A DNA stretch of 59,500 nucleotides, counting the filler, from Sphacelaria rigidula (lineage: Eukaryota): assembly GCA_964200075.2 (NCBI GenBank). It is 5 parts of 5 records of this genome, joined end to end, with 100 filler letters (N's around TTAATTAATTAA, not from the genome) between each part and the next. Parts side by side here need not be neighbours in the genome. Positions count along the whole stretch, not along the records: positions 11,922 to 23,742 come from CAXNAA020004461.1; 4 more parts are not named here. The stretch is one strand, 5' to 3'. A program made the translations under genes and the position numbers. Under the pieces are notes generated by a model. The model worked only from the letters and a program-made list of their open reading frames with translations. It searched no databases and was not told the origin of the DNA. Below, piece by piece: positions 12,240 to 38,700 of this stretch; position 1 is the stretch's first letter; each line of letters opens with the position of its first letter.

Positions 12240-14631
12240 AATCATTTCAAACCTTGTTTTTGATCACACAGGGGTGCGTTCTCACGACCCCTGTGCGAAA
12301 CTCACACACTGTGCGATCACAGAGCAACTTACGTTAATCAGTCGAAAGTGTTGATTGTTCATGCGGCAGGAACAAGCATGTTCGTTTCTCTCGCTTGCTT
12401 TGTAAAAGAAACGGAGCGCACGCGTCAACAGTATACGCGACCAACGCAATGCCGCCCGCCCGACCATCAATACTGCAATGCGTCGAGGTGATTGGTACAC
12501 GTCCTTCGATCTTGCACTTGCCGAACAGGCAGCATGCGCTGCTCTTTGTGACCACCGTACCGCGTGGTAATGCATGGTGGGTGTGCTCGACAGTTCAGTC
12601 ACTTTGTGCAACGCGGGTGAACACTAGGCGCAACTTGGGTGCGGATTTCATGTGCAAGCGTCTGACACTTCTGAAGATTGACCTGTGACGTTTTCCAGCC
12701 TACTCACACCGCACATGCTATCACATCGGACATGCTATCACGTCGCACATTACTTGGGTTGGGGGACTTTGGTTTGGATGCATGCACCCTCTGCAAAGCG
12801 ACAGTTGACGTTACTTCCATGTCATGCCGGCGAGCGCTTTGTGGTATGTGAATATACTCTCCCTCGTAGGTGACTGTAAAAAGGACGATCTCTGTGCAGG
12901 CAAATCCGATGATTCATGAATACCATCGAGAGTAACAATTTCTCTTCTGAAAATAGCCGAAATGATCCTGTCCCGTTGTTAGATAGGCTTGCTCTGTAGT
13001 ACTTCTCACAGTGGGAATCCCACCATAGTACAGTCAAAATAACTTGTCCTATTTGTCATATTTCCAATCCGCTAGACAACTGAAAGTAGCTCTACTTCAC
13101 CAATACAGTCAAGGGGCCAACCATAGTGCGGTGGTCCGGGCCTTCGATCCACCGTACTCTGCTAAGACCCCCAACAGGACGCATGGTATGTGCCCAGGAT
13201 AGCTTTTTGTATACGCTGGGATAGCTGAAACATGTACATCATACATCATTGTGTATATGTGTCGATAGTCCCGCAGCAGACGAAGATCCACACCGTTGCC
13301 TGTCGTGAGTTTATCTCTCATTAGCGAGTGGACCCTCTCCTTTCTTATACTGTGTTTTGTTTAAGTATCCCCCACGGTCTTACAGGTATGCAAGAACAGC
13401 TGTACAGGGTCGCCCTCACATATGGTGTAGCTCATCCACGCTGGACAATCGTACACAGGGTCGCTAAACCCTATCCGGGTGGTGTACAGGGCGCTATCTG
13501 CACACTTGTAAGCCGTGTGAGCACAGGACTTGCTGCCTTGCGCCACACTGTACTGTTGCCTTTAAATTCACGGCCAGCGCAGTATCCATGCGTCGACACC
13601 ATACAGTACCCCATCAGGCACGATGAATGTGGCGTCGTATGTGTAGGCTCACCACTGTGGCTTTTAAACACCAGCGGCAGCCACGGCAGAACACAGCACA
13701 ACGGCTCAGTGGTACCATTACAATGATGTCAATCCGGTGCCTTTGCGTATTTAACCTCTTGTGAAGCCTGTCTTACATGCCGTCGGAAGTCATGTTGATT
13801 CAGTACAAGCAACAGAAACAAATCAAGTTTCTTCTTTCTCATGACGGCGCGTAGCTCACAAGCCTTTTGGAAACATCTCACCGCCGATGCACGGACCGTG
13901 TTGCGATAGTGCATCTGGGAGTTGCCGTTTTCATCTGAGGTGCTGTGCAAGCTAGAATACATCGGCGACGATGTTTTCGGACACTGCTGCAAGTCTGTGC
14001 AACGAGGAATACCCAGCAGGAAAATAACGATACGAACATGGCCTAGAACATGGCCTGGGCCATATGTACGGAGTTGCCTTCGCACGCCGGCGTGCATCTG
14101 CTGAACCTTGTCCAGCCGGTATCGATGTATGAACCGTGTCCCTATAGTGCGTCTCGGCGTTCTCGTGCTATATGGTGGCATGTAGACGGAGTGTGCGTCG
14201 AAACGATGATAGCAGATGTTGTAGCTGTAACACTTTCGATTCGAATCCACTGTTCAAGTTTGGGCAGGCTTTTGTGGTGGTGTGGTGCTTTGGCATGTTT
14301 TCCGCTGCACAATGATCCTGCTATTGTACTGCGGTAGCGCTTCATTCGCCTTCGATCCCTAATCCAATAGTGTACAGGATGTCCCGTTCGGTAGAACTCT
14401 CTTGCATGCGGTGCTGCGGTTGTTACGGTCAGCTTACATGTAGCGTCGTTTGACTTTCATACCGGCAACCTCTTGTTCTCCAGTGCTGATCCTTCTGGAA
14501 AGCGTGCCAACTCGCTTTCACACATCGCTCACGGCAGACTTCCCGCCGTTTCGGCTTTTTGTGCTACCGTTAGCAGTTAGTTTTCGAAGAAGCCCCACGC
14601 GAAGGACCTGACGGCCGACGTCGCAGAAGAA

Positions 14632-16645
14632 AGGTGCATCACCAAGGGCTGCTCCGAGCCGCCATATCACGGTTCACAGGGCTACACGGGGGAGACCTGC
14701 TCCCAACATGCGACGGCAAGAGGGGTGACTGTTAAGAACAAGTGCGTTAACGAGAGCTGTTCCTACAGGCCGTCTCAAGGAGTAGCTGGAGGCAAGAAGG
14801 CGGAGTTCTGCTCTTAGCACACCAGGGCGGGCATGGTGAATGTGGTAAAGAAGAGGTGCGGCGACGAGGGCTGCTCAAAGCGTCCGTCGTATGGTGTAGT
14901 AGGAAGCAAGAAGGCGGAGTTCTGCTTTCAGCACGCCAGGGCGGGGATGGTGGACGTGAAAAGCAAGAAGTGTGGCTACGAGGGCTGCTCCACGAGGCCG
15001 TATTTTGGTGTGGTTGGGAGCAAGAGGGCGGAGTTCTGCTTTAAACACGCCAGGGCGGGGATGATGGATGTTTTGAACAAGAAGTGTGGCTTCGAGGGCT
15101 GCTCAAATCATCCGTCGTATGGTGTAGTAGGGAGCAAGAAGCCGGAGTTCTGCTCCAAGCACGCCAGGGCAGGGATGGTGAACGTGAAAAGCAAGAAGTG
15201 TGGCTACGAGGGCTGCTCAAAGCAGGCGTATTATGGTGTAGTAGGAAGCAAGAAGGCGGAATTCTGCTACAAGCACGCCAGGCTGGGGATGGCGAATGTT
15301 GTAAACAAGAAGTGCGGCTACGAGGGCTGCTCCACGAAGCCGTCTTATGGTGTAGTAGGAAGCAAGAAGCCCGAGTTCTGCTCCAAGCACGCTAGGGCAG
15401 GGATGGTGGACGTGATAAACAAGAAGTGTAGCTACGAGGGCTGCTTCACGAAGCCGTATCATGGTGTAGTAGGAAGCAAGAAGGCGGAGTTCTGCTCCAA
15501 GCACGCTAGGGCGGGGATGGTGGACGTGATAAGCAAGAAGTGTAGCTACGAGGGCTGCTCCACGAAGCCGTCTTATGGTGTAGTAGGAAGCAAGAAGCCC
15601 GAGTTCTGCTCCAAGCACGCTAGGGCGGGGATGGTGAACGTGATAAGCAAAACGTGTAACTACAAGGGCTGCTCCACGAAGCCGTGTTATGGTGTAGTAG
15701 GAAGCAAGCAGGCGGAGTTCTGCTCCAAGCACGCTAGGGCGGGGATGGTGGACGTGATACACGAGAAGTGTAATTACAAGGGCTGCTTCACGAAGCCGTG
15801 TTATGGTGTAGTAGGAAGCAAGAAGGCGGAGTTCTGCTCCAAGCACGCTAGGGCGGGGATGGTGGACGTGATAAACAAGAAGTGTAGCTACGAGGGCTGC
15901 TCCACGAAGCCGTCTTATGGTGTAGTAGGAAGCAAGAAGCCCGAGTTCTGCTCCAAGCACGCTAGGGCGGGGATGGTGAACGTGAAGAGCAAGAAGTGTA
16001 GCTACGAAGGCTGCTCCACGAAGCCGTCTTATGGTGTAGCAGGAAGCAAGAAGGCAGAGTTCTGCTCCAAGCACGCTAGGGCGGGGATGGTGGACGTGAT
16101 AAACAAGAAGTGTAACTACGAGGGCTGCTCAAAGCGGGCGTGTCATGGTGTGGTAGGAAGCAAGAAGGCGGAGTTCTGCTCCAAGCATGTCAAGGCGGGG
16201 ATGGTGAACGTGCGAGTTAGTATGTGCGGCTGCGAGGGCTGCTCGACTCAGGCGTCTTGCGGTGTAGTGGGAAGCAAGAAGGCGGAGTTCTGCTTTGAGG
16301 ATGCCATGGCGGGCATGGTTAATGTTGTGAACAAAAGTTGCGGCTACGTGGGCTGCTCCACTAAGACGCCTTATGGTTTAGTGGGGAACGAGGCGGAGTT
16401 CTGCTCCAAGCATGCCAGGACGAAAGTGGTGGATGTGGTAAACAAGAACTACAGCAATGAGGGATGCTCCAACAGGCGGTCGTACGGTGTCGCGGGCAGC
16501 GCAAAGGCAGAGTCCTGCTCTGAGCATGCCAGGGCGGGAATGGTGAATATGGGGAGCAAAAGGTGCAGTGAAGTGGGGTTCTCCAAATGGCTTATCCGCA
16601 AGAAGCACAACGTTGATGAGGCGACGTTTTGCCGAGAACACGCCA
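14632..16645 (+). repeat. 114-bp coding tandem array (~18 units)
   Basis: GAGTTCTGCTCCAAGCACGCTAGGGCGGGGATGGTG recurs every 114 bp. Confidence 0.95.
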
Positions 16646-17217
16646 CTGCACGCAACACAGCTGCGGTGTCTGATACGGCGAAGCTCAACACTGCGGAGAG
16701 CGCCCCCGGCCGTGGCCCGACGGAGACCAGTGGAGGAAACGTTGTTCATCTACGAGGAACGAAACGAAATCACGCGGCATTCTCGGGTCCTGTTGCAAAC
16801 GACTTTGTTGGTGCTCGCCGCAATGCCGATGTCGGTCCCACGCAGGGTGTAAGAACACCATTGCTCTGGGGATGCCCAGTTTCAAGGACTGGTGGAGAGG
16901 TGACTTTTGGGACAAAAGCAGGAGTAGGGATGAAGGTGGAGGTGGCAGTCCCTTCTCCTACTCACGGTGGCGATGGGATGAGGGGGTATCGTAAGTTTTC
17001 TGCCTCTTCGAGCAGTTGGAGAAGCGAGCGTGGTGGTAGTGGCTTTGTCAGCGGTGATGGTGAAAGTAATGGTCAGATCTGTAGTTCCTCGGCAGTGGTA
17101 CTTGGACGCCTGGGCGAACTTGATGATGTGATTTCTGAAGAGGCAAAACAGGATTCGAACGTGAAGGTGGAGCTAGGAGTGTCCGGTTCGAATCTTCCGG
17201 CGTTCGAAGCATGGTAG
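14833..17217 (+). CDS. EsV-1-7 domain (C-x4-C-x16-C-x2-H) tandem-repeat protein, 794-aa ORF with 16 repeats; two further degenerate repeats lie upstream in frame (14581-14832) behind a TAG at 14815
   Basis: 38-aa unit KKCxYEGCxxxPxYGVVGSKKAEFCSKHARAGMVDVxx, matching the cysteine-rich EsV-1-7 repeat known from Ectocarpus IMM-family and phaeovirus proteins. Confidence 0.88.
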   Translation: MVNVVKKRCGDEGCSKRPSYGVVGSKKAEFCFQHARAGMVDVKSKKCGYEGCSTRPYFGVVGSKRAEFCFKHARAGMMDVLNKKCGFEGCSNHPSYGVVGSKKPEFCSKHARAGMVNVKSKKCGYEGCSKQAYYGVVGSKKAEFCYKHARLGMANVVNKKCGYEGCSTKPSYGVVGSKKPEFCSKHARAGMVDVINKKCSYEGCFTKPYHGVVGSKKAEFCSKHARAGMVDVISKKCSYEGCSTKPSYGVVGSKKPEFCSKHARAGMVNVISKTCNYKGCSTKPCYGVVGSKQAEFCSKHARAGMVDVIHEKCNYKGCFTKPCYGVVGSKKAEFCSKHARAGMVDVINKKCSYEGCSTKPSYGVVGSKKPEFCSKHARAGMVNVKSKKCSYEGCSTKPSYGVAGSKKAEFCSKHARAGMVDVINKKCNYEGCSKRACHGVVGSKKAEFCSKHVKAGMVNVRVSMCGCEGCSTQASCGVVGSKKAEFCFEDAMAGMVNVVNKSCGYVGCSTKTPYGLVGNEAEFCSKHARTKVVDVVNKNYSNEGCSNRRSYGVAGSAKAESCSEHARAGMVNMGSKRCSEVGFSKWLIRKKHNVDEATFCREHATARNTAAVSDTAKLNTAESAPGRGPTETSGGNVVHLRGTKRNHAAFSGPVANDFVGARRNADVGPTQGVRTPLLWGCPVSRTGGEVTFGTKAGVGMKVEVAVPSPTHGGDGMRGYRKFSASSSSWRSERGGSGFVSGDGESNGQICSSSAVVLGRLGELDDVISEEAKQDSNVKVELGVSGSNLPAFEAW

Positions 17218-17851
17218 GTGGCACCATTTCTTTTACCGGCGCCTTTGCTCAGATTAACCTAGAAGGGTGATGGTGTGTGCTCGCGTATGTTGTCAGCAGT
17301 CTCAAACGACGGTTGGTCGACAAGATTTGTCTTCTTCCAGGGGTGCAAAGCAGGTCGTGAGGCTGCAGGTTCTGATATTCCAGCGCCACGTTCCACCAGA
17401 TTCTCGTCGAGGCGCAGTTTTCATACTTGCATCGACCGTGTGCTTGGGTGACAATTTGCCAAAAGCTGACCGCAAGTAGATGGATCGTAGTAGTCGGCCA
17501 CCCGATGAACCATGACACCACTGTTTGACTTGTGATTCGTACTTTACCCCAACGTTTTTTTACTTGTGCAGCACGTACTGCCACGCTTGTCCATCCTACG
17601 ATAGAATCTGTACCACGAACAAAAACGCGTACGGCGATTTTGTTCTGTCAGACCACGACTCCAGAGAGTTCCAGTTGCCCCAGTATGGGTATGGCGTATT
17701 CACACCTCAGGCGCGCTGTGGTTTTAGCCGCGTACGTCATGTCTGTAGCACGGGATCATACATATCGGGGATGTATTTTTTCTATCGACACTTTCTACGA
17801 TAGCCCCCCCACCCAAACCAGCACAAAAGTGTCCCGAACAAATTGGCCATA

Positions 17852-18751
17852 CAGGCTGAGCCACCCAAGAAGCGGACTTACCTTCAGCCGGTTCCAACTG
17901 ATGATCTATCGCGAGTTGTGCCCACTATGACACATCGTGGTAATCTACAAATCAATGTGTGCCTTTCACTTCACGTAGCACTGCGATCTGACAAAGTTCC
18001 CATCGAACGAAATACCAAACTGCAGTCGGCTGCGAAGTGTAGAGAGTTGAGGGTGGCATGTGCGGCGGAACTAGGAGGAAAAAACGGCTGAACTCGCATT
18101 TACGGTTACAGTCAGTTGTGCCGCGACCGCAAAGTGATGGTACTACACTAGTTGTGGTTGTACAACAAGGCATGTCGTACTGTAGGCGCGCAGTGTCTGA
18201 GATGGCACGCAGACGAAACCTTCAGCGCGCCAAGGCTTCGCGCTTGTAGAAAACGTCAAAGTTCCGACTGAGGTTATTGTACCCTCGAAGCAAGTGAACC
18301 GGTTCTCGGTAGAAAAGGGTGATTTCACTCCTCAATGTGAAGTTGCTTTTCATGAAATATTGACACGGTATAAATGGGGTATACGTGAAGTCCATACCGT
18401 TTATCCCCTCCTTCTCCCTTTTTGTCCTCGTATGTTATTGGTGATCTAAATTTCGAAACATTTTTTTCTGGTGCAAAAGCGTCGACAACTCATTTAAAAA
18501 ACAAAAATGTCAAGGGGGGACGATAAGGAATTCAAAACATACCTCATGCGCATCGTGTCGGAATTTCGTGAAAAAATACCTAAAATTCAACAGCATAACC
18601 GCGTTTCATTTTTTCGTGGCTGGTCCACCTCCACATAGGAAGCAGTCTCGGACACGATTACGCAATTCAACAGCTGAGTTTCAGGTCGTTTTCAATGAAA
18701 TTGTGACACGATGTACATGATGTATGTGCGAAGTAGCCACCTTCTCCCCTC

Positions 18752-19015: not shown

Positions 19016-21851
19016 TACAGCGTTTGATGTTTGGGTCCAGGCTGCATGAAGCGTCTCATATTGGCAGCATTAGCGAAAACGAACCCAAGCGTGGGAATTC
19101 CCAGCTGCTCGTTGTGCTCGGCTTTTTTCATTTCGATTTACGTGAAGATTTTGCCTCCCAAACCATGTTGGGGAGGGGCTATCGTAGAAAATGTTTGTCA
19201 AGGATGAGATATCCGGAGAATTTTATCTTCGTATCCACATCAGATCTTCGAATATGGATCCATTTATCTACTTGCTGGTGGCTTTTGACAACTACTACAT
19301 GCCATACAGATTTGGATTCCCTTAACCGACCGGTTACGGTCCAAGGTGAAGTACGAGCTGGTCCAGCCAAGAGTAGGTGTGAATCTTGCTCAGGCGACGC
19401 ACGGCGCGATATTAGGAGTTGGGCGCTGATGGTTTACAGCATCTTGCTATGATCGAAATGCAGATCACGTGAGCAGCAGAGGGAAAAAGGAAAAAAAGAA
19501 GGTGAAGGTATTTGTGTCGGATATACCTCTTTACCGTAACATATCAGAGACTGATATCACACGTGTATAAAGAGCCAGAGCAAGTAGGTACAAGTGGGAA
19601 CGGTCCGCATGAACCAGATTCCCGAGGACTCTGTAATGCCAACGGAACTAGGCAACTCGGGGTGATGCCAGAAAGAGCCTAATATTCAGGACGGTCCAAC
19701 ATCCCCGAGGAACTGGTCGCCTCCAGCGACCACTGTGTCTGACCCAACTTCTTGCCTACATGTCACAAGAGGGAATCATCCTCAGCTTCGGAGTTCCTTC
19801 GGCATCAGGATGACATCTCTTGGGGCAGCCGCTTCCTTAGTCTGTCCCCCCTTTGGATACGTCCTCCTTACATTGGCGACACCAGGATATAACTCAAGTA
19901 GACATCTAGTAGTAGGGCACACGTCTTTCACCATGCCGAGAAAGAAATCCGCCCACAAAAAATCCACCAGAACAACTTCTCGGGGAAGGGTCACTGCGAA
20001 GACCGTCGAGCATCCAACCGCGGCCGTCATGCCATCAACTTCCACCTCGGCGGCGAAAGCGGCAGAGTCCAGAGGCGCAGCGAAACCAGTAGTACCTGCG
20101 CCGGCCGACACAAGCCTGCCCGCTCAACCTTCGTATAGCCACGAGGGGGAAAGCGACAGCGACAACACTGACGACTCTGAGCGGAGCACCGATATCCGTC
20201 AAGTGTCCACCGGTAGGCTTGATGCGCTACGCGACCCCACCAAGCTATCCTCATCCTCTACACCAACCCCTACGCCACAACCCACCATCAAGGAAAAGGC
20301 AGCAGAGCTCGCATATAGGGCGTTGGAGAGAAGCGACGAGGAGGGTACGGAGCCAGCTCCGTGGGTAATGCAAGCTTTGGGGTTTTCGGTACCGCAAGAG
20401 CAGGGAGTTTCACAGGTGTCGAAATCGAGCAACCCAGTAGCATCGGAAATAGAGCATCTAAGTAATAATACGATGCTACAAAACAATACAAGTAAACCCC
20501 AGGATCATGTCAATGATCCAGTCGATAATGTCAAGGTCGAATTGCCTAACACTACGCCGATCCAATCCACAGAGAGCTCAGGGACTTTGACGTTAGATCC
20601 GCCAACAAGCCTCACTGACGTATAAGGAAACAGCCACAACGTAAAGCCTCTGTCTAGTTCAGTGCTGACTCCGCCATCTACAAGCCATAGTAACACCATG
20701 AGAACAAAACATTTTCGATGAAACAATCGGACCTCCCATCAACGTTAATCCTAGAAGGAAAATGGAGTGAGGACGTGCCAGCAATAATTCTCCATGCGTT
20801 TCTCAATCGAGTTAGGATACATGCCCCTGACGATTGCACAGAATCCACAGTACAACGGCACGCCATAAAGCACTCACCACGTATCCTCAGAGGGTCAGCA
20901 GAAAAGTTATACATCCCTCTCGGAAGCGGAAACGTAGAGTGGCGCCCACTACCTGTACTGCAAGACCTCAAATCGAGAGGAAAATATACCGCACCCATTG
21001 CCCCGAAAACGTGGACAGAATGGGTAGCGGCCTACACCCATCGCTTCTCAAACCAACTAGCACCGTTAGCCCGTGGGATAGCCGATCTGAAGCAGGAAAA
21101 AGGTCAGAACATAGACGACTATGCACTGGAAGGTACGACTTCGATGGACACATTCGCGACCGAGGCCTTGCGGGTGAAATTTCCTGGCCACGACACGCTT
21201 CGCATTATAATAGACGTGATCACAACAGCAGCATTTGAGACCGGGCTTAAACCCCATATCAGAGTTGAAATGGTGAGAGAAGATAGTACGCTCGACTTCC
21301 AAACTGCGACAGCGTGAGCGAAAAAACACGAACAAAACAATCTCCGCACATGGCCAAGCCTAACCGGAGACACTCCCCATGTCTCGGCCGCAACCGTAAA
21401 TTCCCCACGTCCACAGCTAGCAGAAATGATCGCCGATCATGGCGCAATCCTTACGGACCTTCAGTCGCAGTTATAAACGATTAATGGAGAGAGAGGGAGA
21501 GCGGAGAAACGGTCTGCTAGCATAGACAGGAGCGCGAGTAAATCAGGGGGAGAGTTGAAAAACGTACGCTTCAAGGATAGTAATGGTAAGAATACATCCA
21601 ATGACAAGTAGTTGAGCGGTAAAACGAAGCAATCAGCCCGTTGTGAATACGCATCATGCAGGTACAAGAACACACACGAGACAGAAGATTGCCGCCTTAT
21701 GCAGAGCCATGTAGAGTCTGCAAAAACGTACAACCCGTGAAGACGCCCAAGAGAGGACCCCTCGTCTGATCAGGGCAGAAACGGCAAATCCTTACGTAGA
21801 AAATCGAGGGAAACAGGAGGACGCGAAATCGTCAACCCTCTGGCTCGTAAG

Positions 21852-22979
21852 ATGGGAGAGTTTCATTTTTCTGACAGTACGGCAGACCAACCACTGAGAC
21901 TGCGTAAGAGGTCTCGGGTAGAGGTCAACCATGTACGAGATGAGCACGAGCAGGAGCATAGCAACAGAGAGCAGAGTACAAATAGCGAATGCGTAGAACA
22001 AATGCAACCTATATTTTTAGCTCCGCAGGCGGCTTTTGTGAGTAACTCATTGGAGAAAAATAAAAAATCGAAACACCAATCTTCTTTTTCAAATCCGATC
22101 ATAAATGATCACTGTTATGACTCTTACAACGCATCTTCGCTTGCCAGATATACAGTTGCACCCTTAGCACTGTCCTGTGCATCGGCCTGTGTGAGAGTCA
22201 CAGCCAGAGTCAACGGCGCCCTCGCTGAAAAAATCACAATTGATTCCGCAGCAGATGTGTCCTGTATCAGCAAAAGGTTCATCGATGAACAACCGGCCAT
22301 AATGGCAGCTGATATAAAGCCAGTACCGCCGGGGTCAATAGACCTCAGAAGTGCGGACGGCTCCCCCATGAAAATTCTAGGTTTCATACGTTTCGAACTT
22401 ACGTTAGGGATAAAAACCCTACCAGTAGAAGCGTTCGTATTGCCTAACCTAGGACCGGATTGCCTGTTACTGGACAATTCCGGTATGAGTGTTTTCCAAG
22501 CTATACTCGACTGGCAAGCGGAAGAGCTAACATTCCGTGATTCCAGTATAACAAAACAAGCATCGCATCGAAAACAACAGCGTTCACAAAATACGACACA
22601 CCCCGAAACGACGCATTGTTCTGTAGTCAAAGTGAACTGTTCGAACGCTGTTCCAGTTTTTCTCACGAAGAAGTACAATGTGCCTCCGCAGAGTGAGATG
22701 ACAGTATTAGTTAAACGGAAAATACCTACAGCAGCCGTCATAGAACCACGCATTATAACCGAAGAAGACATTCGATCAACCGATGTACTCCCAGCGTTCA
22801 CGCGCATCATCGTTGCAAGGGCGATGTGCACACGGTCGGCAACAAATAAGACGGCAATGGTACAAATCGCCAATCCGTCGAATCGACATGTGAACCTGAA
22901 ACGTAATACGATTTTAGGCCTATATCACCCCAGTACGAGAAACAAAACCAGCTACAGTCAGTGCAATGGCGGAAAATAA
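21852..22979 (+). pseudogene. Gypsy aspartic protease region
   Basis: VNG...ITIDSAADVSCIS...CLLLDN retropepsin pattern; frameshifted relative to RT. Confidence 0.8.
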
Positions 22980-23133
22980 CGTGTCAGAGAGAAAGAAAAT
23001 GCGAAAGAGGAAGTACGTCCAGCTTTACGCAAAGCTTTCGAAAATACGACCTTTTCCCCTGAACAATGCTCTCAAATACTGGATCTTTGCGCAAAATACC
23101 GTTCTGTGTTTTCACTTACTCCGCAGGAGTTAG

Positions 23134-23676
23134 TTGGGCTATTGTACGTTAGAGGAAGCACGCTTTCCGCTCAAACCTGGGACTCAGCCGGTAGACCGAG
23201 CGTCATGTAGAGCAAACCCCAGAGTGCAAGACGCAATCGACAAATGCGTCGACCAGATGAAAGAAGATGGTATAGTCGAACAACGCCCAAGCCCGTGGGG
23301 ATCAGCGGTTACAATAGTCGTAAAAGCAGACGGAACAGCACGATTATACGCAGATTATCGAGCAACGATAAATACAAACTTGATTAGCAAATCATGGCCC
23401 ATGCCAGCTGTGGAAAGTCACATAGATACAGTAGCGAGGGCAAGAATAATGACAGTTTGCGATGTACAAAGTGCGTTCCACCAGATACCAGAGGTAGAAA
23501 GCAAAAAAGAGAAAACAGCGTTTGTAACTCGAAGAGAGAAATGGGTGTTCAACCGGTTACCATTTGGTTTAGCGTGTTCACCCTTTATCTTCTCACGCAT
23601 AATGACACTAGCATTTGCACACTTCGGACCCAAGAGTGGCTTACTAATGTATATGGATGACATAATTTACAAGTAG
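23134..23676 (+). pseudogene. Gypsy reverse transcriptase fragment
   Basis: SPWGS, CDVQSAFHQI, KTAF, RLPFGL, YMDD. Confidence 0.92.
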
Positions 23677-35762: not shown

Positions 35763-38700
35763 CTCAGTTGTCAGCCTTTACAACACCTCACCATTATCAT
35801 GGAGTGAAAAATCTCCAGCCTTGCATCATCTGGCCTGGGCTACACAGCAAGCGTCATCATCTACAGGATGCCCTTGTCCCCTGGTCATCATCCAGGATCC
35901 AATATATACTCAACCGTTACGGCGTGATTTCGCCACAGACCACACGAGGATAGTTTGGGCGGCACAATATAAAGACGGGGAATCCCCGGTGTACGCGCAC
36001 CTAGGCGTAGAGGGACGCCAGGCGACAGTGCACGGCATTGTAGCGAGCCAGAACGCATGCCCGCGCGACTGCATCGATGACCTTCAGGTTGAAGGGAGGC
36101 GCTAACTCCATATCTGGGACACCCGCTCGGAAAAGTAAGTGTGGAGGGCCTTCGAAGACACCGAGAGACCTCATCCTGGTGAAGTTAAGCTTGTGCATGA
36201 ACTGTTTCATACCAACGCTGATCTGGGCCGGCCCCGCAGGCCGGATCTCAAACGACCGTGGCGACGTTATGCCAACGATGGGAAACACGCGACCGCTGTC
36301 TATCAGGGCCCCTTTGAAGTTGACCAAGGAGCGGAGAGTGGTGGTGTAGACGGGCAGGCCCGTGTACGCGGCACTGAAGGCCTCTGCCTGCTGTTATCTC
36401 GTGAACAGGCAAAAACCCTTACAGTGTACGGCGATTCTGTTAAACAATCGTAATTAAGTACCAAAAGTGGTTGTCAATGACATACTTCCACCTATACACT
36501 AACCCTTCGGTGTCAAAAGTAACTCGTGACATCGAGATATGTTTGGACACTCATGTACTGTGCAACCATATCTTCTTACCCCTGTGAGAGTCGTACTGAT
36601 ACCGTACATAATTTGGCATCGGAAAAGACCACCCGCGTATCGGCATTATTTGCAGGACTTACTCCGGGATTTTATTTCGAATTTTTTAATTGGTTGGAAG
36701 CTCGTCCATGAATTATGTTATTTGATGACATAGAATTCGTTCAACAGGAAGAGTGAAGTTTTGCGAATACGAACCTAACCACAGTCTCGGTCCTCAATAT
36801 TTCTACATAGGTTGGGAGTTACAGCCGATTCCCAGCCCAATTACCAAGGTTAATTACCGCGGTAAATTACTAAGGTTTACTGAGTGATCCCACGGTAGGG
36901 GTGCACAAAATATTGCTACCGTTTGAATTTGTAGGAGGCCTCCATCTCATTAGGGTTAGGATTAGGGTTAGGGTCAGGACCTAACTCTAGGACGAGCGAG
37001 GCCATACATCGCAGCCGAATGATCCAGTCGTTTTCTTTATTTCGAAAATATGCATTGCTGTCGGAGGTCCCCAGCGTTCACCCCCAATAACACAGTCTAG
37101 CCGCAGTTTCTGCGGTGAAAAACATATACGATGTGGGTTACACACGCTCTCGGTGCTCTGTCGCAACAATTCATCCCTACGTGTGCCATACGTGCGTACT
37201 GCCTGCGTTGATACCAAACACATCGCGGGGATTTGGGTCTGTCGTCCAATTGGCAACTCCGCAAGACTTCCCCAGGCGCAAAACTCTTGTAAACCTTCAC
37301 TCGGTGTTCAGGCACAGACTGGTCCGCCGCGAGGTGTTGTGTTGTGTGTGGTGTGCGGTTGTGCGGTATTACTCCCCGGTTGTGCGATACCGATCTTCGA
37401 TTTTGACGCACAATTCTTTGTACACACCTCGAGAAGACCTGGTCGATCATGATGTGGGTATGTCCAACTATCATGAAGTTGACCTCAACCCGTCCGATTA
37501 CGCCTCGAGCAACCAGAGAACCCAGGTACGTTAAGACGATATGGTTCTTGTTCTCGCCAACGCAGTTGTCGAATTGGGCGAACAGTTCGCCAATGTACGC
37601 TAGGGTGCCGTCGCTGCAGTGCGTGTCGAACAGTCGCGTCAGTGCCTGGTGAATGGAGATACATATACGATTGCTACCTGCGAAACAAGTACACGGCAAA
37701 GTGGTGGCGGGATGGCGGGACGGGCAGTGTGCGATGTTCGTTAGGTTTGTGGAAGAAATGTTGTGGTAGACTGTGGTGCAGTGTGCTATACCGAACCACG
37801 CGCCTCGGCGGTAGACGTACCGAGCGAATAGACTAGGGCAGACGAAGAGTTACTCACTTCGAATTGGGTGGGCGGCGGTACTACGCTAAAAGAAAATCGA
37901 CATGGGAACGAATCATGCCGACGATCGCCTCACGGTATAATTCGGCGACTGCATAACACGAGCACCGTACTCTAACTCACCGCCGCCGACGGCCTGAGGT
38001 GCCAGGAAGAAATCCACGAACTGTCCCTCCACGAGAACTGCCATGATTTCTTGGCGTTCGGCATATCCCCTGTCAGTCACCACATCGCGCATCGTGCATA
38101 ACCGTGGAGTCGTATCAGACACGATACAGTCTACATCGACGTCGACGCACGCGCGAGCGAGTATACACCAGCGCCATGACTGTGGGTGTACGCGAGTGTT
38201 GGAGGCGCTAACCAAAGGGGGACACCGTCGAATGCACGGTCAATCGTCGTTCGTACTCACTTGTCTGTGCCGTGCGTCACTGAAGAGTACATAGGTAGAG
38301 CGAACACCGTTTGGGTTGCTGCATCGGCTTGTAGAGACACGAACTTCAAAGGCTCCTGATTGGCCTTCGCTCGAATGGCAGCCTGACTGATGAAAGCGAG
38401 GCGCTGACGGTCTAGAGTCATCAACTGTAACGGTCGAGGGGATGTGCGCGTCGTAAGATTGATGAGGAATATCTCGAGCTTTGTATCTACCAGTGGGATA
38501 AACCATGCGCCTCAAGCCGTGGTCCCATGAGAGACGAACTCGGTATTGAAGGAAGCACAGAACCACCCGCTCAGGAGGCGTGAAGTAACCATAAATATTG
38601 AAAACACAAACATAGCTAATAAATTCAGATCAACATACACACTGTGCCTCCAAGGAGGGACGTTATCGAGATGAATCAACCTACACCACAATAAACGAAA

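What the first reader, a model, noticed from the sequence alone, without database searches (positions are those of the whole stretch)
14632..16645. EsV-1-7 zinc-finger-like array with hypervariable positions: a candidate modular recognition code
Seen: a near-invariant scaffold (C..EGC, GVVGSK.(A/P)EFC.KHARAGM) with variation concentrated in the six residues after the second Cys: SKRPSY, STRPYF, SNHPSY, SKQAYY, STKPSY, FTKPYH, STKPSY, STKPCY, FTKPCY, STKPSY, STKPSY, SKRACH, STQASC, STKTPY, SNRRSY. The linker (VKS/VLN/VIN/VIS/VIH) also varies. Central units are nearly identical at DNA level and the ends are degenerate, as expected from recent unequal crossover. Known: EsV-1-7 repeats are shared by brown algae and their giant viruses, evolve fast, and have no established biochemical function. 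Inference: a basic, reshufflable array analogous to PRDM9, TALE or PPR proteins that may read nucleic acid, for example in antiviral or anti-TE defence.
Basis: partly seen in the sequence, partly recalled or inferred. Interest (0 to 1): 0.72.

Follow-up and report, generated by a model that had tools for sequence, protein, structure and literature searches.

The report
Long EsV-1-7 zinc-repeat gene, brown alga
This is an intact brown-alga-type gene for a basic protein made of 15 tandem copies of the known but functionally unexplained EsV-1-7 zinc-binding repeat; its repeat-to-repeat differences do cluster at a few positions, but they evolve at a neutral rate, so a recognition code is possible and not shown.

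Summary
ORF 14833-17217 (+, 794 aa, pI 9.4) carries 15 tandem 38-aa EsV-1-7 units (Pfam PF19114, E 3.8e-220; 114-bp period). Seven central units are 89-96% identical in DNA; the end units are 65-80%. Two further relic units upstream are cut off by an in-frame TAG (14815-14817).

Variation is not uniform, but it is not confined to the six residues either. Hot columns are 9, 11, 35 and 36. The same four columns are the most unit-specific in 92 other family proteins. Scaffold omega is 0.27; hot columns have omega about 1.0-1.4, not above 1 (P 0.33). So the hot columns may be relaxed loops or specificity sites.

The gene is a new member of a known family. Its tail is shared with Sphacelaria rigidula paralogues.

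New indirect support for DNA binding comes from giant-virus contigs. There one nuclease-like C-terminal domain follows EsV-1-7 arrays in 47 of 62 ORFs and classical C2H2 zinc-finger arrays in 10 of 62.

No solved fold matches the unit. A TALE/PRDM9-like code remains a minority reading.

The parts
14635..14742 (+). Relic unit U-1 (36 codons, degenerate Cys/His pattern). It lies upstream of the ORF, in the same frame, with no ATG back to the previous stop.
   Evidence: Pfam PF19114 E 1.2e-9 for 14632-14814
14743..14856 (+). Relic unit U00, carrying an in-frame TAG at 14815-14817 (AAG in the other units). The ORF's ATG (14833) lies in its 'AGMVNV' motif.
14833..17217 (+). Open reading frame, 794 aa plus stop, pI 9.40, 53 Cys. 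It starts 'MVNVV..KC', as do the annotated Sphacelaria rigidula relatives P0001, P0003, P0004 and P0011.
14857..16338 (+). Units U01-U13, 13 x 114 bp in perfect register (38 aa each). U01-U12 have intact C-x4-C-x16-C-x2-H; U13 has Asp for His26.
15313..16110 (+). Young core, units U05-U11: 89-96% DNA identity and one clade on the unit tree. They differ at 22 nucleotide sites.
16339..16449 (+). Unit U14, with a one-codon deletion in the loop between Cys6 and Cys23 and a degenerate 'ARTKVV'.
16450..16563 (+). Unit U15, with Cys1 replaced by Tyr and Phe22 by Ser.
16564..16650 (+). Degenerate last partial unit. The second Cys is lost (Phe), but a C-x2-H remains at 16630-16641.
16588..17214 (+). 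Non-repeat tail of 209 aa. It is 33-51% identical to the tails of P0001, P0003, P0004, P0006, P0008 and P0011, and has no Pfam family. Conserved patches are a basic patch (16753-16773) and two hydrophobic-K-x-E motifs (16930-16941, 17161-17172).

Best explanation
This is a single-exon nuclear gene of the brown-algal EsV-1-7 family. It appears to be transcribed.

The protein has 15 tandem 38-residue modules followed by a 209-residue tail shared with a Sphacelaria-type subfamily. Each module most likely holds one zinc ion through Cys1, Cys6, Cys23 and His26. The tail carries a basic, NLS-like patch and two SUMO-consensus-like motifs.

The array grew by tandem duplication of whole units. Seven central units are young and the flanks are older and decaying. 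The scaffold residues have stayed under purifying selection.

Most likely mechanism (inferred, not shown): the chain of small, basic zinc modules binds nucleic acid, probably DNA, multivalently in the nucleus and acts as a regulator, as proposed for the family member IMM. The exposed positions just after the first zinc knuckle (columns 9 and 11) and in the inter-unit linker (35 and 36) differ from unit to unit. They may tune what each module contacts, but they evolve at a rate indistinguishable from neutral.
For: SHOWN
- Family membership: PF19114, E 3.8e-220, 15 stretches. 401 relatives were found and the best are Sphacelaria rigidula proteins at 50-54% identity.
- Coding constraint on the 15-unit tree: scaffold columns have 35 nonsynonymous and 35 synonymous changes, omega 0.27, P(omega<1) 1.3e-7.
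- Recent unit duplication: U05-U11 are 89-96% identical and form one clade.
- Hot columns chosen beforehand from 92 other proteins (9, 11, 35, 36) hold 29 of 98 nonsynonymous changes against 10.5 expected (P 2.6e-7). They hold 5 of 50 synonymous changes against 4.9 expected.
- The same columns lead in 39 proteins with young units and in 26 nuclease-fused viral arrays.
- The tail is homologous to six relatives, four of which also begin 'MVNV'.
- The unit is modelled with pLDDT about 82, with short strands at columns 12-14 and 31-33 and no helix.

SUGGESTIVE OF TRANSCRIPTION
- In two runs guessed to be RNA (X5, X7), summed contig depth is 2-9 over 13600-14565. It is about 600-1550 over the non-repeat tail (16659-17302) and 37-168 over 17303-17785.
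- Two other runs (X1, X3) are roughly flat across the same parts.

INFERRED (DNA binding)
- The protein has pI 9.4.
- In giant-virus contigs one C-terminal domain follows EsV-1-7 arrays in 47 of 62 complete ORFs, C2H2 arrays in 10 and neither in 5. The same two partners were seen among 13 database proteins (11 EsV-1-7, 2 C2H2).
- That domain gives repeated sub-threshold matches to nucleases only: Hjc, PvuRts1I, DUF2726, AHJR-like, NERD and PHROG homing or intron-encoded nucleases.
- Helicase-associated (HA) domain fusions occur in P0085 and P0087.
- A published passage describes a Tc1/mariner transposase with an N-terminal EsV-1-7 domain.
Against: - No assay, solved structure or fold match ties the unit to nucleic acid. 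Sequence and profile searches of the PDB found nothing. Foldseek gave no hit at E<=0.001. VIA-align gave no Z>=2 for the 4-unit model and a best Z of 2.7 (RING domains) for one unit.
- The fusion evidence comes from distant viral relatives, not from this gene. On the tree of the C-terminal domain it may reflect only one partner swap (the C2H2 group is one side of a branch with weak support, 59/77).
- The nuclease assignment rests on sub-threshold scores.
- Gene integrity is not certain. Two relic units with a stop codon lie just upstream and are covered by the RNA-like runs. Three of 15 units have lost a ligand or a residue.
- The basic patch is weaker here (KRNH) than in five of the six relatives (KRKR, or RRKR in P0011); the sixth, P0008, has KRNR.
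- The runs called RNA are only guessed to be RNA. Contigs at 90% likeness or more may include close paralogues.
- The NLS and SUMO-motif readings are recalled consensus patterns, not tests.
Confidence: 0.55

Rival explanations
1. The array is a modular recognition code: each unit reads a defined nucleic-acid element through a few specificity residues (columns 8-12, especially 9 and 11, plus 35 and 36). Unit reshuffling and diversifying selection create new specificities, as in PRDM9/KRAB zinc fingers, TALEs or PPRs.
For: - Hot columns are reproducible. Columns 9, 36, 35 and 11 are the most unit-specific in 92 proteins, and their variability within a protein is 84-92% of that between proteins.
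- The same columns lead in 39 arrays with young units and in 26 nuclease-fused arrays.
- In this array they take 29 of 98 nonsynonymous changes, against 10.5 expected, with no excess of synonymous changes.
- Residues at these columns are mostly polar or basic (R, Q, K, S, T, N, H).
- C2H2 arrays replace EsV-1-7 arrays in front of the same nuclease-like domain.
Against: - Omega at columns 9, 11, 35 and 36 is 1.40 with P 0.33. For the six columns it is 1.15 (P 0.46), and for all variable columns 0.99. There is no evidence of positive selection.
- The enrichment is only 2-3 fold, and many other columns also vary (7, 24, 25, 29, 38).
- Part of this array's variation hits family-conserved core positions (Pro10, Tyr12) in the decaying end units U12-U15. 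That looks like erosion rather than design.
- The relative orientation of units is not confidently modelled (pTM 0.41), so no regular superhelix is supported.
Confidence: 0.17
2. The array is a protein-binding or otherwise non-nucleic-acid scaffold of small zinc modules. The variable columns are simply unconstrained surface loops and linkers.
For: - Omega is about 1 at the variable columns.
- The only structural neighbours at all are RING domains, at Z 2.0-2.7.
- No DNA-binding family is detected by Pfam in this protein.
- A preprint passage states that Ectocarpus EsV-1-7 genes carry no other Pfam domain annotation.
Against: - The recurrent fusion partners in relatives all act on DNA: a nuclease-like domain, a transposase and the HA domain.
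- C2H2 arrays substitute for EsV-1-7 arrays in the same architecture.
- The array carries a strong net positive charge (103 K+R against 42 D+E).
Confidence: 0.2
3. The locus is a decaying pseudogene. The nonsense codon in U00 truncated an ancestral longer gene, and the remaining frame is open only because too little time has passed.
For: - There is an in-frame TAG at 14815-14817 inside a recognisable unit, and no ATG upstream in that frame.
- Three of 15 units have lost a ligand or a residue.
- The basic patch is weakened.
- Differences from other runs in the tail are mostly nonsynonymous: 9 nonsynonymous against 2 synonymous among the 11 listed places from 16591 to 17218, the last of which lies just past the stop codon. 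Only 27 of 337 differences were examined.
- The protein is not in the 5.8-billion-protein collection (not listed).
- The region is rich in transposon remains.
Against: - The frame is open for 2385 bp through a 114-bp repeat, where slippage would easily break it.
- Scaffold omega is 0.27.
- Four annotated relatives start at the same 'MVNV' position, so the ATG at 14833 is a plausible native start and the relic units would be 5' UTR.
- The depth pattern in the RNA-like runs fits expression.
Confidence: 0.08

Closest known systems
EsV-1-7 domain family (Pfam PF19114 / IPR043822): Ectocarpus virus EsV-1 gene 7, Ectocarpus IMMEDIATE UPRIGHT (IMM), and about 2000 brown-algal genes
   Same: - Same repeat: C-x4-C-x16-C-x2-H with a 38-aa period, and the Pfam match is far above threshold.
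- The best relatives are brown-algal.
- The family is known to be expanded in brown algae, clustered in tandem arrays, and of unknown biochemical function (passages).
   Different: - The array is longer than usual. It has 12 canonical units plus 3 degenerate ones here. Among the 120 best relatives the canonical count is mostly 5-8, and only one reaches 15.
- It lacks IMM's unique N-terminal domain. Instead it has a C-terminal tail shared with a Sphacelaria subfamily.
- No other EsV-1-7 gene lies in this 59.5-kb window.
Giant-virus proteins with an EsV-1-7 array followed by a PD-(D/E)xK-like nuclease-like domain
   Same: - Same repeat family.
- The same columns (9, 11, 35, 36) are the most variable between units.
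   Different: - The window protein has no nuclease-like domain; its tail is unrelated and matches no Pfam family.
- Many of the viral units use C-x2-C rather than C-x4-C.
Tandem C2H2 zinc-finger arrays with fast-evolving contact residues (KRAB-ZNF, PRDM9) - an analogy, not membership
   Same: - Tandem zinc modules that grow by unit duplication, with young near-identical central units.
- Differences are enriched at a few positions.
- C2H2 arrays occupy the same place as EsV-1-7 arrays in front of the viral nuclease-like domain.
   Different: - No beta-beta-alpha fold: the model has no helix.
- No Pfam C2H2 match.
- The linker is variable rather than conserved.
- There is no significant positive selection at the hot positions.
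TcMar-2_Ec32 Tc1/mariner transposase of Ectocarpus with an N-terminal EsV-1-7 domain (Genome Biol 2025, PMC12477816; passage read)
   Same: The EsV-1-7 module sits where transposases usually carry their DNA-binding domain.
   Different: The window gene has no transposase part. It carries a long array rather than a short N-terminal module.

Membership tests
EsV-1-7 cysteine-rich repeat family (PF19114) | Match to the Pfam model above the gathering score (25 bits) | tested here: met
   711.8 bits, E 3.8e-220, 15 stretches
EsV-1-7 cysteine-rich repeat family (PF19114) | C-x4-C-x16-C-x2-H ligand spacing, repeated in tandem | tested here: met
   12 exact matches at 38-residue spacing; 3 further units each have one defect
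EsV-1-7 cysteine-rich repeat family (PF19114) | Family-conserved core residues (Gly5, Pro10, Tyr/Phe12, Gly/Asn13, Gly16, Phe/Tyr22, Met31, Val32, Asn/Asp33, Val34) | tested here: met
   The consensus of the 15 units carries all of them, compared with 690 distinct units from 117 of the 120 relatives
EsV-1-7 cysteine-rich repeat family (PF19114) | Zinc binding by the four ligands | not testable with these tools
   Only inferred, from the invariant Cys/His and a confident small-domain model (pLDDT 82.8)
IMM (IMMEDIATE UPRIGHT) orthologue group | IMM-specific N-terminal domain ahead of five repeats (as described in the passage read) | tested here: not met
   The ORF starts directly in a repeat, and only relic repeats lie upstream. 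No IMM sequence was available for a direct comparison.
Modular nucleic-acid recognition arrays with a residue code (TALE, PPR, PUF, PRDM9-type C2H2) | Variation between units confined to a few specificity positions on an otherwise constant scaffold | tested here: inconclusive
   Columns 9, 11, 35 and 36 hold 29 of 98 nonsynonymous changes, and about 26% of differences in 39 other arrays. This is enriched but far from exclusive.
Modular nucleic-acid recognition arrays with a residue code (TALE, PPR, PUF, PRDM9-type C2H2) | Diversifying selection at the specificity positions (PRDM9/KRAB-ZNF type) | tested here: inconclusive
   Omega 1.40, P(omega>1) 0.33, from only 34 changes in 4 columns. No orthologue DNA was available.
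Modular nucleic-acid recognition arrays with a residue code (TALE, PPR, PUF, PRDM9-type C2H2) | Sequence-specific DNA or RNA binding, with one unit per fixed number of bases | not testable with these tools
   Only indirect architecture evidence
Classical C2H2 zinc finger (PF00096) | Beta-beta-alpha fold with C-x2-4-C-x12-H-x3-5-H | tested here: not met
   No Pfam C2H2 match. The ligand set is CCCH with x16 spacing. The models have no helix.
PD-(D/E)xK nuclease superfamily (for the viral C-terminal domain, not for the window gene) | Significant match to a member family, with conserved acidic catalytic residues | tested here: inconclusive
   - All matches are sub-threshold: PvuRts1I E 0.14; Hjc E 0.02-1.2; DUF2726 1.4e-4 in 1 of 39 members; AHJR-like 0.005; NERD 0.03.
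- PHROG homing endonuclease 8.3e-4 and intron-encoded nuclease 6.2e-5 in 2 of 39 members.
- The E-x-D-E-x-x-H core is invariant and the D upstream of it is conserved in at least 90% of sequences.

The most novel reading that the evidence does not exclude
EsV-1-7 repeats are a previously unrecognised class of modular DNA-reading zinc modules. In this reading, giant viruses use arrays of them as interchangeable targeting heads for a PD-(D/E)xK-type nuclease, as they also use C2H2 arrays. That would make these proteins natural 'zinc-finger nucleases'. Brown algae would have domesticated and expanded the arrays into a lineage-specific family of sequence-specific regulators. Residues 9 and 11 (after the first zinc knuckle) and 35 and 36 (linker) would set each unit's specificity. 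Arrays such as this 15-unit one would gain new targets by unit duplication.
Probability: 0.2. Interest if true: 0.85.

Novelty: new member of a known kind. Interest (0 to 1): 0.5.

Why it matters
EsV-1-7 genes form one of the largest gene-family expansions in brown algae and include the developmental regulator IMM. The papers I could read still give them no biochemical function.

This locus by itself is one more member of that family, with an unusually long and recently expanded array. What the follow-up adds is a concrete, testable handle for the whole family:
- four reproducible unit-specific positions (columns 9, 11, 35, 36);
- evidence that the scaffold is under selection within an array;
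- a domain-architecture argument, namely the swap with C2H2 arrays in front of a nuclease-like domain in giant viruses, which points to DNA as the ligand.

If DNA binding is confirmed, brown algae would have a lineage-specific family of transcription-factor-like proteins that are associated with giant viruses. The viral nuclease fusions would also be of interest as natural programmable nucleases.

Tried and rejected
- Whole-genome search: no genome is held for this window.
- Other EsV-1-7 genes in the window: tblastn with two units found none outside 14500-16800.
- Solved structures by sequence: phmmer with the whole protein and hmmsearch with alignment A1 gave only E>=0.4 noise.
- Fold searches:
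  - Foldseek against the PDB gave no hit at E<=0.001. The best rows were the nsp13 zinc-binding domain and DcR3, at E about 1.
  - VIA-align wide gave no Z>=2 for the 4-unit model.
  - VIA-align wide on the single unit gave a best Z of 2.7, to RING domains.
  - These results say nothing about whether the fold is new.
- ESM Atlas: no usable hit.
- Pfam side hits (Phe_ZIP, zf-primase) have 0 accepted stretches and are repeat artefacts. The same holds for most 'extra' Pfam labels on relatives.
- Mutual information with APC on 690 units, to infer strand pairing: the top pairs (13-17, 13-21, 2-21) look like subfamily signatures, not contacts. Exposure of the variable residues therefore stays untested.
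- Pairwise Nei-Gojobori ratios for the young core (variable columns pN/pS 2.25; the six columns 30 nonsynonymous pair-differences against 0 synonymous) rest on only 3 variable sites in the six and on columns picked after the fact. I do not use them as evidence of positive selection.
- Search of the large protein collection with the tail (residues 586-794): 2092 candidates, none at E<=0.001. Tail relatives are known only from blastp among the 120 saved hits.
- Sequencing runs:
  - No listed holder is on record as RNA.
  - The joints in the laid contigs are mostly not multiples of 114, and one 'goes back 912'. They look like assembly-graph tangles in a repeat and are not evidence of copy-number polymorphism.
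  - Whether the TAG at 14815 is present in other runs could not be read. No difference is listed there, but no listed piece spans it.
- The search for related loci with P0125 alone found no relative in viral contigs. The alignment A3 did.
- Macaisne et al. 2017 (Development 144:409), the family's founding paper, is not held. Its content is cited only through passages in other papers.
- bioRxiv supplements (e.g. Table S17 of the Phaeoexplorer preprint, which lists all EsV-1-7 genes) were not opened and may already contain this gene.
- Papers searched: 'EsV-1-7' (11 papers hold the term, 9 listed); 'IMMEDIATE UPRIGHT' plus 'cysteine-rich' (19 papers); PF19114 / IPR043822 / EsV_1_7_cys (2 papers); 'EsV-1-7' plus 'endonuclease' (1 paper). 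I read only the passages that mention EsV-1-7 in five of these papers. None of those passages describes hypervariable positions, a structure, or nuclease fusions of the repeat.
Full report
1. WHAT IS THERE

The window is eukaryotic-looking DNA of about 49% G+C. No whole genome is held for it.

On the + strand, an open frame runs from ATG 14833 to the stop at 17215-17217 (794 aa; stop-to-stop 14818-17217). Tandem Repeats Finder finds a 114-bp period with 15.8 copies at 14750-16547 (score 2059). Pfam's EsV_1_7_cys model (PF19114) matches with E 3.8e-220 in 15 stretches.

Cut in register, the array has 13 units of exactly 114 bp (U01-U13, 14857-16338). After these come U14 (one codon shorter), U15, and a degenerate partial unit.

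The ligand pattern C-x4-C-x16-C-x2-H is intact in 12 units. U13 has lost His26, U14 has a shortened loop and U15 has lost Cys1.

These are separated from the ORF by an in-frame TAG at 14815-17, which is a one-base change from the AAG of the other units. No ATG lies upstream in that frame.

The 303-codon antisense frame (15217-16128) is a by-product of the repeat.

2. HOW THE ARRAY EVOLVED

Units U05-U11 are 89-96% identical in DNA and form one clade on a maximum-likelihood tree of units. The outer units are 65-89% identical to the others. This confirms the 'young centre, old ends' pattern expected from unit duplication by unequal exchange.

Parsimony counting on that tree gives 98 nonsynonymous and 50 synonymous changes.
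- The 25 scaffold columns have omega 0.27 (35 N, 35 S; P(omega<1) = 1.3e-7). So the repeats have been kept as protein while they diverged.
- The 13 variable columns have omega 0.99.
- Fisher's test of variable against scaffold columns gives an odds ratio of 4.2 and P 1.1e-4. The variable class was chosen after seeing the data, however.

3. ARE THERE HYPERVARIABLE POSITIONS?

To avoid circularity I defined hot columns from other proteins.
- In 92 relatives with at least 5 canonical units, the columns that differ most between units of the same protein are 9, 36, 35 and 11. Mean pairwise difference there is 0.69-0.79, which is 84-92% of the between-protein value.
- The profile of this array correlates with that family profile (Spearman 0.75).
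- In 39 proteins that contain young unit pairs (70-99% identical), these four columns take 7.4%, 7.5%, 4.9% and 5.9% of the differences. The uniform expectation is 2.6%.

In the window's array the same four columns carry 29 of 98 nonsynonymous changes, against 10.5 expected (P 2.6e-7). They carry 5 of 50 synonymous changes, against 4.9 expected. The excess is therefore not mutational.

The linker columns carry 25 (11.0 expected, P 6.7e-5). The single most variable column is linker column 35, not one of the six.

Omega is 1.40 for columns 9, 11, 35 and 36 (P 0.33) and 1.15 for the six (P 0.46).

Variation is clearly non-uniform and reproducible across the family. Its rate cannot be told from neutral, and the enrichment is only 2-3 fold. 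Some of this array's changes hit residues that are conserved family-wide (Pro10, Tyr12), and they do so in the eroding end units.

4. STRUCTURE

A four-unit model (pLDDT 81, pTM 0.41) and a one-unit model (pLDDT 82.8, pTM 0.57) show a small domain without a helix. It has short strands at columns 12-14 and 31-33 and a bridge at Phe22. The orientation between units is not fixed.

No solved structure resembles it by sequence or by fold (best Z 2.7, RING domains). For a 38-residue domain this is uninformative.

The alternation of conserved hydrophobic residues (10, 12, 32, 34) with variable ones (9, 11, 33, 35) would fit outward-facing variable side chains on strands. That is inference only.

5. 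THE REST OF THE PROTEIN AND ITS RELATIVES

The protein is not in the 5.8-billion-protein collection. Its best relatives are unnamed proteins of the brown alga Sphacelaria rigidula (50-54% identity over the array).

Six relatives share the tail at 33-51% identity (P0001, P0003, P0004, P0006, P0008, P0011). Four of them begin 'MVNV..', exactly like this ORF. That makes ATG 14833 a credible start and the two relic units a likely 5' UTR.

The conserved tail features are:
- a basic patch: K-R-K-R in four relatives, R-R-K-R in P0011, K-R-N-R in P0008, and the weaker K-R-N-H here;
- a hydrophobic-K-x-E motif present in 7 of 7 sequences;
- a second such motif near the C-terminus, in 6 of 7.

From recalled consensus patterns these look like a nuclear localisation signal and SUMO sites. 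This is a lead, not a test.

The relatives have 5-8 canonical units, so the 15 here is an expansion.

6. EXPRESSION

Contigs of four public runs of a coded organism were laid on 13600-18400.
- In two runs guessed to be RNA, summed depth is 2-9 upstream of 14566. It is about 750-930 over the relic units, thousands over the array, about 600-1550 over the unique tail (16659-17302), and 37-168 downstream to 17785.
- Two other runs are roughly flat over the same unique parts.
- Pieces 96-98% identical to the window cover the tail and the relic units.

This fits a transcript of about 14.57-17.3 kb plus a 3' UTR. The library type is a guess, and close paralogues may contribute.

7. WHAT THE REPEAT MAY DO: EVIDENCE FROM ARCHITECTURE

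Two of the best hits carry extra C-terminal domains. The C-terminal 177 residues of P0007 recur in 13 database proteins. Eleven of these have EsV-1-7 arrays and two have classical C2H2 zinc-finger arrays instead. The invariant residues are shared across both kinds.

In IMG/VR viral contigs, many of them labelled as giant-virus MAGs, 518 of 604 pattern matches encode this domain, and 80 loci were kept. Of the 62 complete ORFs that I scanned, 47 have EsV-1-7 arrays, 10 have C2H2 arrays and 5 have neither. I left out 18 ORFs that were 5'-truncated or short.

A tree was built from 51 of these domains; nine ORFs lacking my motif pattern and two identical duplicates were dropped. On it the C2H2-linked domains fall on one side of a weakly supported branch, so as few as one partner swap is needed.

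The domain is not assigned by any library at its threshold, but every weak match is to a nuclease:
- archaeal Hjc (PDB E 1.2; Pfam E 0.02-0.12; NCBIfam E 0.064);
- PvuRts1I, aligned over D...E-x-D-E-x-x-H (E 0.14);
- DUF2726, AHJR-like and NERD;
- PHROG 'homing endonuclease' (8.3e-4) and 'intron encoded nuclease' (2 of 39 members, 6.2e-5).

P0002, with 16 units, has a different C-terminal region that matches PHROG 'HNH endonuclease' (2.1e-5). P0085 and P0087 join the array to helicase-associated (HA) domains.

A published passage reports an Ectocarpus Tc1/mariner transposase with an N-terminal EsV-1-7 domain (PMC12477816).

In the 26 nuclease-fused arrays with at least 4 units, the most unit-specific columns are again 9, 11 and 36, followed by 24, 7 and 35.

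Taken together, the EsV-1-7 array sits where DNA-binding modules sit, and it can be replaced by C2H2 arrays. This is the best available argument that the family binds DNA. It is indirect and comes from distant relatives.

8. COMPARISON WITH WHAT IS KNOWN, AND VERDICT

The family is well described: its expansion in brown algae, its link to giant viruses, and IMM. It is called a possible new class of zinc finger without an established function (passages). The founding paper was not available to me.

The locus is therefore a new member of a known kind, notable for its length and its young core.

- nucleic-acid binding has gained indirect support;
- a residue 'code' under diversifying selection is neither shown nor excluded;
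- defence is unsupported.

In the four literature searches, and in the passages I read from five of those papers, I found no description of unit-specific positions or of nuclease fusions of this repeat.

Neighbourhood. A reverse-transcriptase fragment lies at 23134-23676 and a DUF7869 ORF at 37097-37849. A very high-copy repeat lies at 17786-18268. I saw no giant-virus genes among the 14 large neighbouring ORFs I scanned.

Noticed in passing
L001-L080 (IMG/VR viral contigs); proteins P0007, P0121-P0132: A conserved C-terminal domain of about 150 aa has an invariant E-x-D-E-x-x-H core, a highly conserved D upstream of it and a conserved 'R-x-N-P-D' further on. Its only weak matches are to nucleases. 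It is widespread in giant-virus contigs (518 of 604 pattern hits). It follows EsV-1-7 arrays in 47 of 62 ORFs, classical C2H2 zinc-finger arrays in 10 and neither in 5. These look like natural 'zinc-finger nuclease' architectures.
   Followed up: partly
P0002 residues about 1120-1195: A 1244-aa metagenomic protein with 16 EsV-1-7 units ends in a different domain. That domain matches PHROG 'HNH endonuclease' (E 2.1e-5) and 'homing endonuclease' (E 0.032).
   Followed up: no
window 17786-18268: A very high-copy repeat lies just downstream of the gene. Summed contig depth is 1.6-3.0e5 in run X1, against about 600-1400 on neighbouring unique sequence.
   Followed up: no
window 19666-23676: A run of long + strand frames (19666-20625, 20694-21317, 21741-22979) has strong A-over-T skew (0.27-0.32 at 20001-22000) and no Pfam match. 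It is followed by a reverse-transcriptase fragment at 23134-23676 (RVT_1, E 8.4e-14). This is probably a decayed retroelement.
   Followed up: partly
window 37097-37849 (-): An ORF matches DUF7869 (PF25273, E 7.4e-22). Its nature is not established.
   Followed up: no
window 16753-16773, 16930-16941, 17161-17172: The tail has a basic patch that is weaker than in five of the six relatives. It also has two conserved hydrophobic-K-x-E motifs: the first is present in 7 of 7 aligned tails and the second in 6 of 7. By recalled consensus these look like an NLS and SUMO sites.
   Followed up: partly
relatives P0020, P0055, P0075, P0089; locus L040: The start of EsV-1-7 units gives weak matches to Pfam Zf_WRKY19 (PF24906), with whole-protein E down to 5e-13 but mostly 0 accepted stretches. 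This may be a remote link to a land-plant zinc-finger repeat, although passages I read say the family is absent from land plants.
   Followed up: no
window 16232, 16390, 16426 (units U13, U14): In the other runs' contigs several degenerate residues of the window's end units read as the family consensus: Cys->Tyr at column 3, Glu->Lys at column 19, Val->Met at column 31. The window's copy may thus be a more eroded allele, or the contigs may come from a close paralogue.
   Followed up: partly
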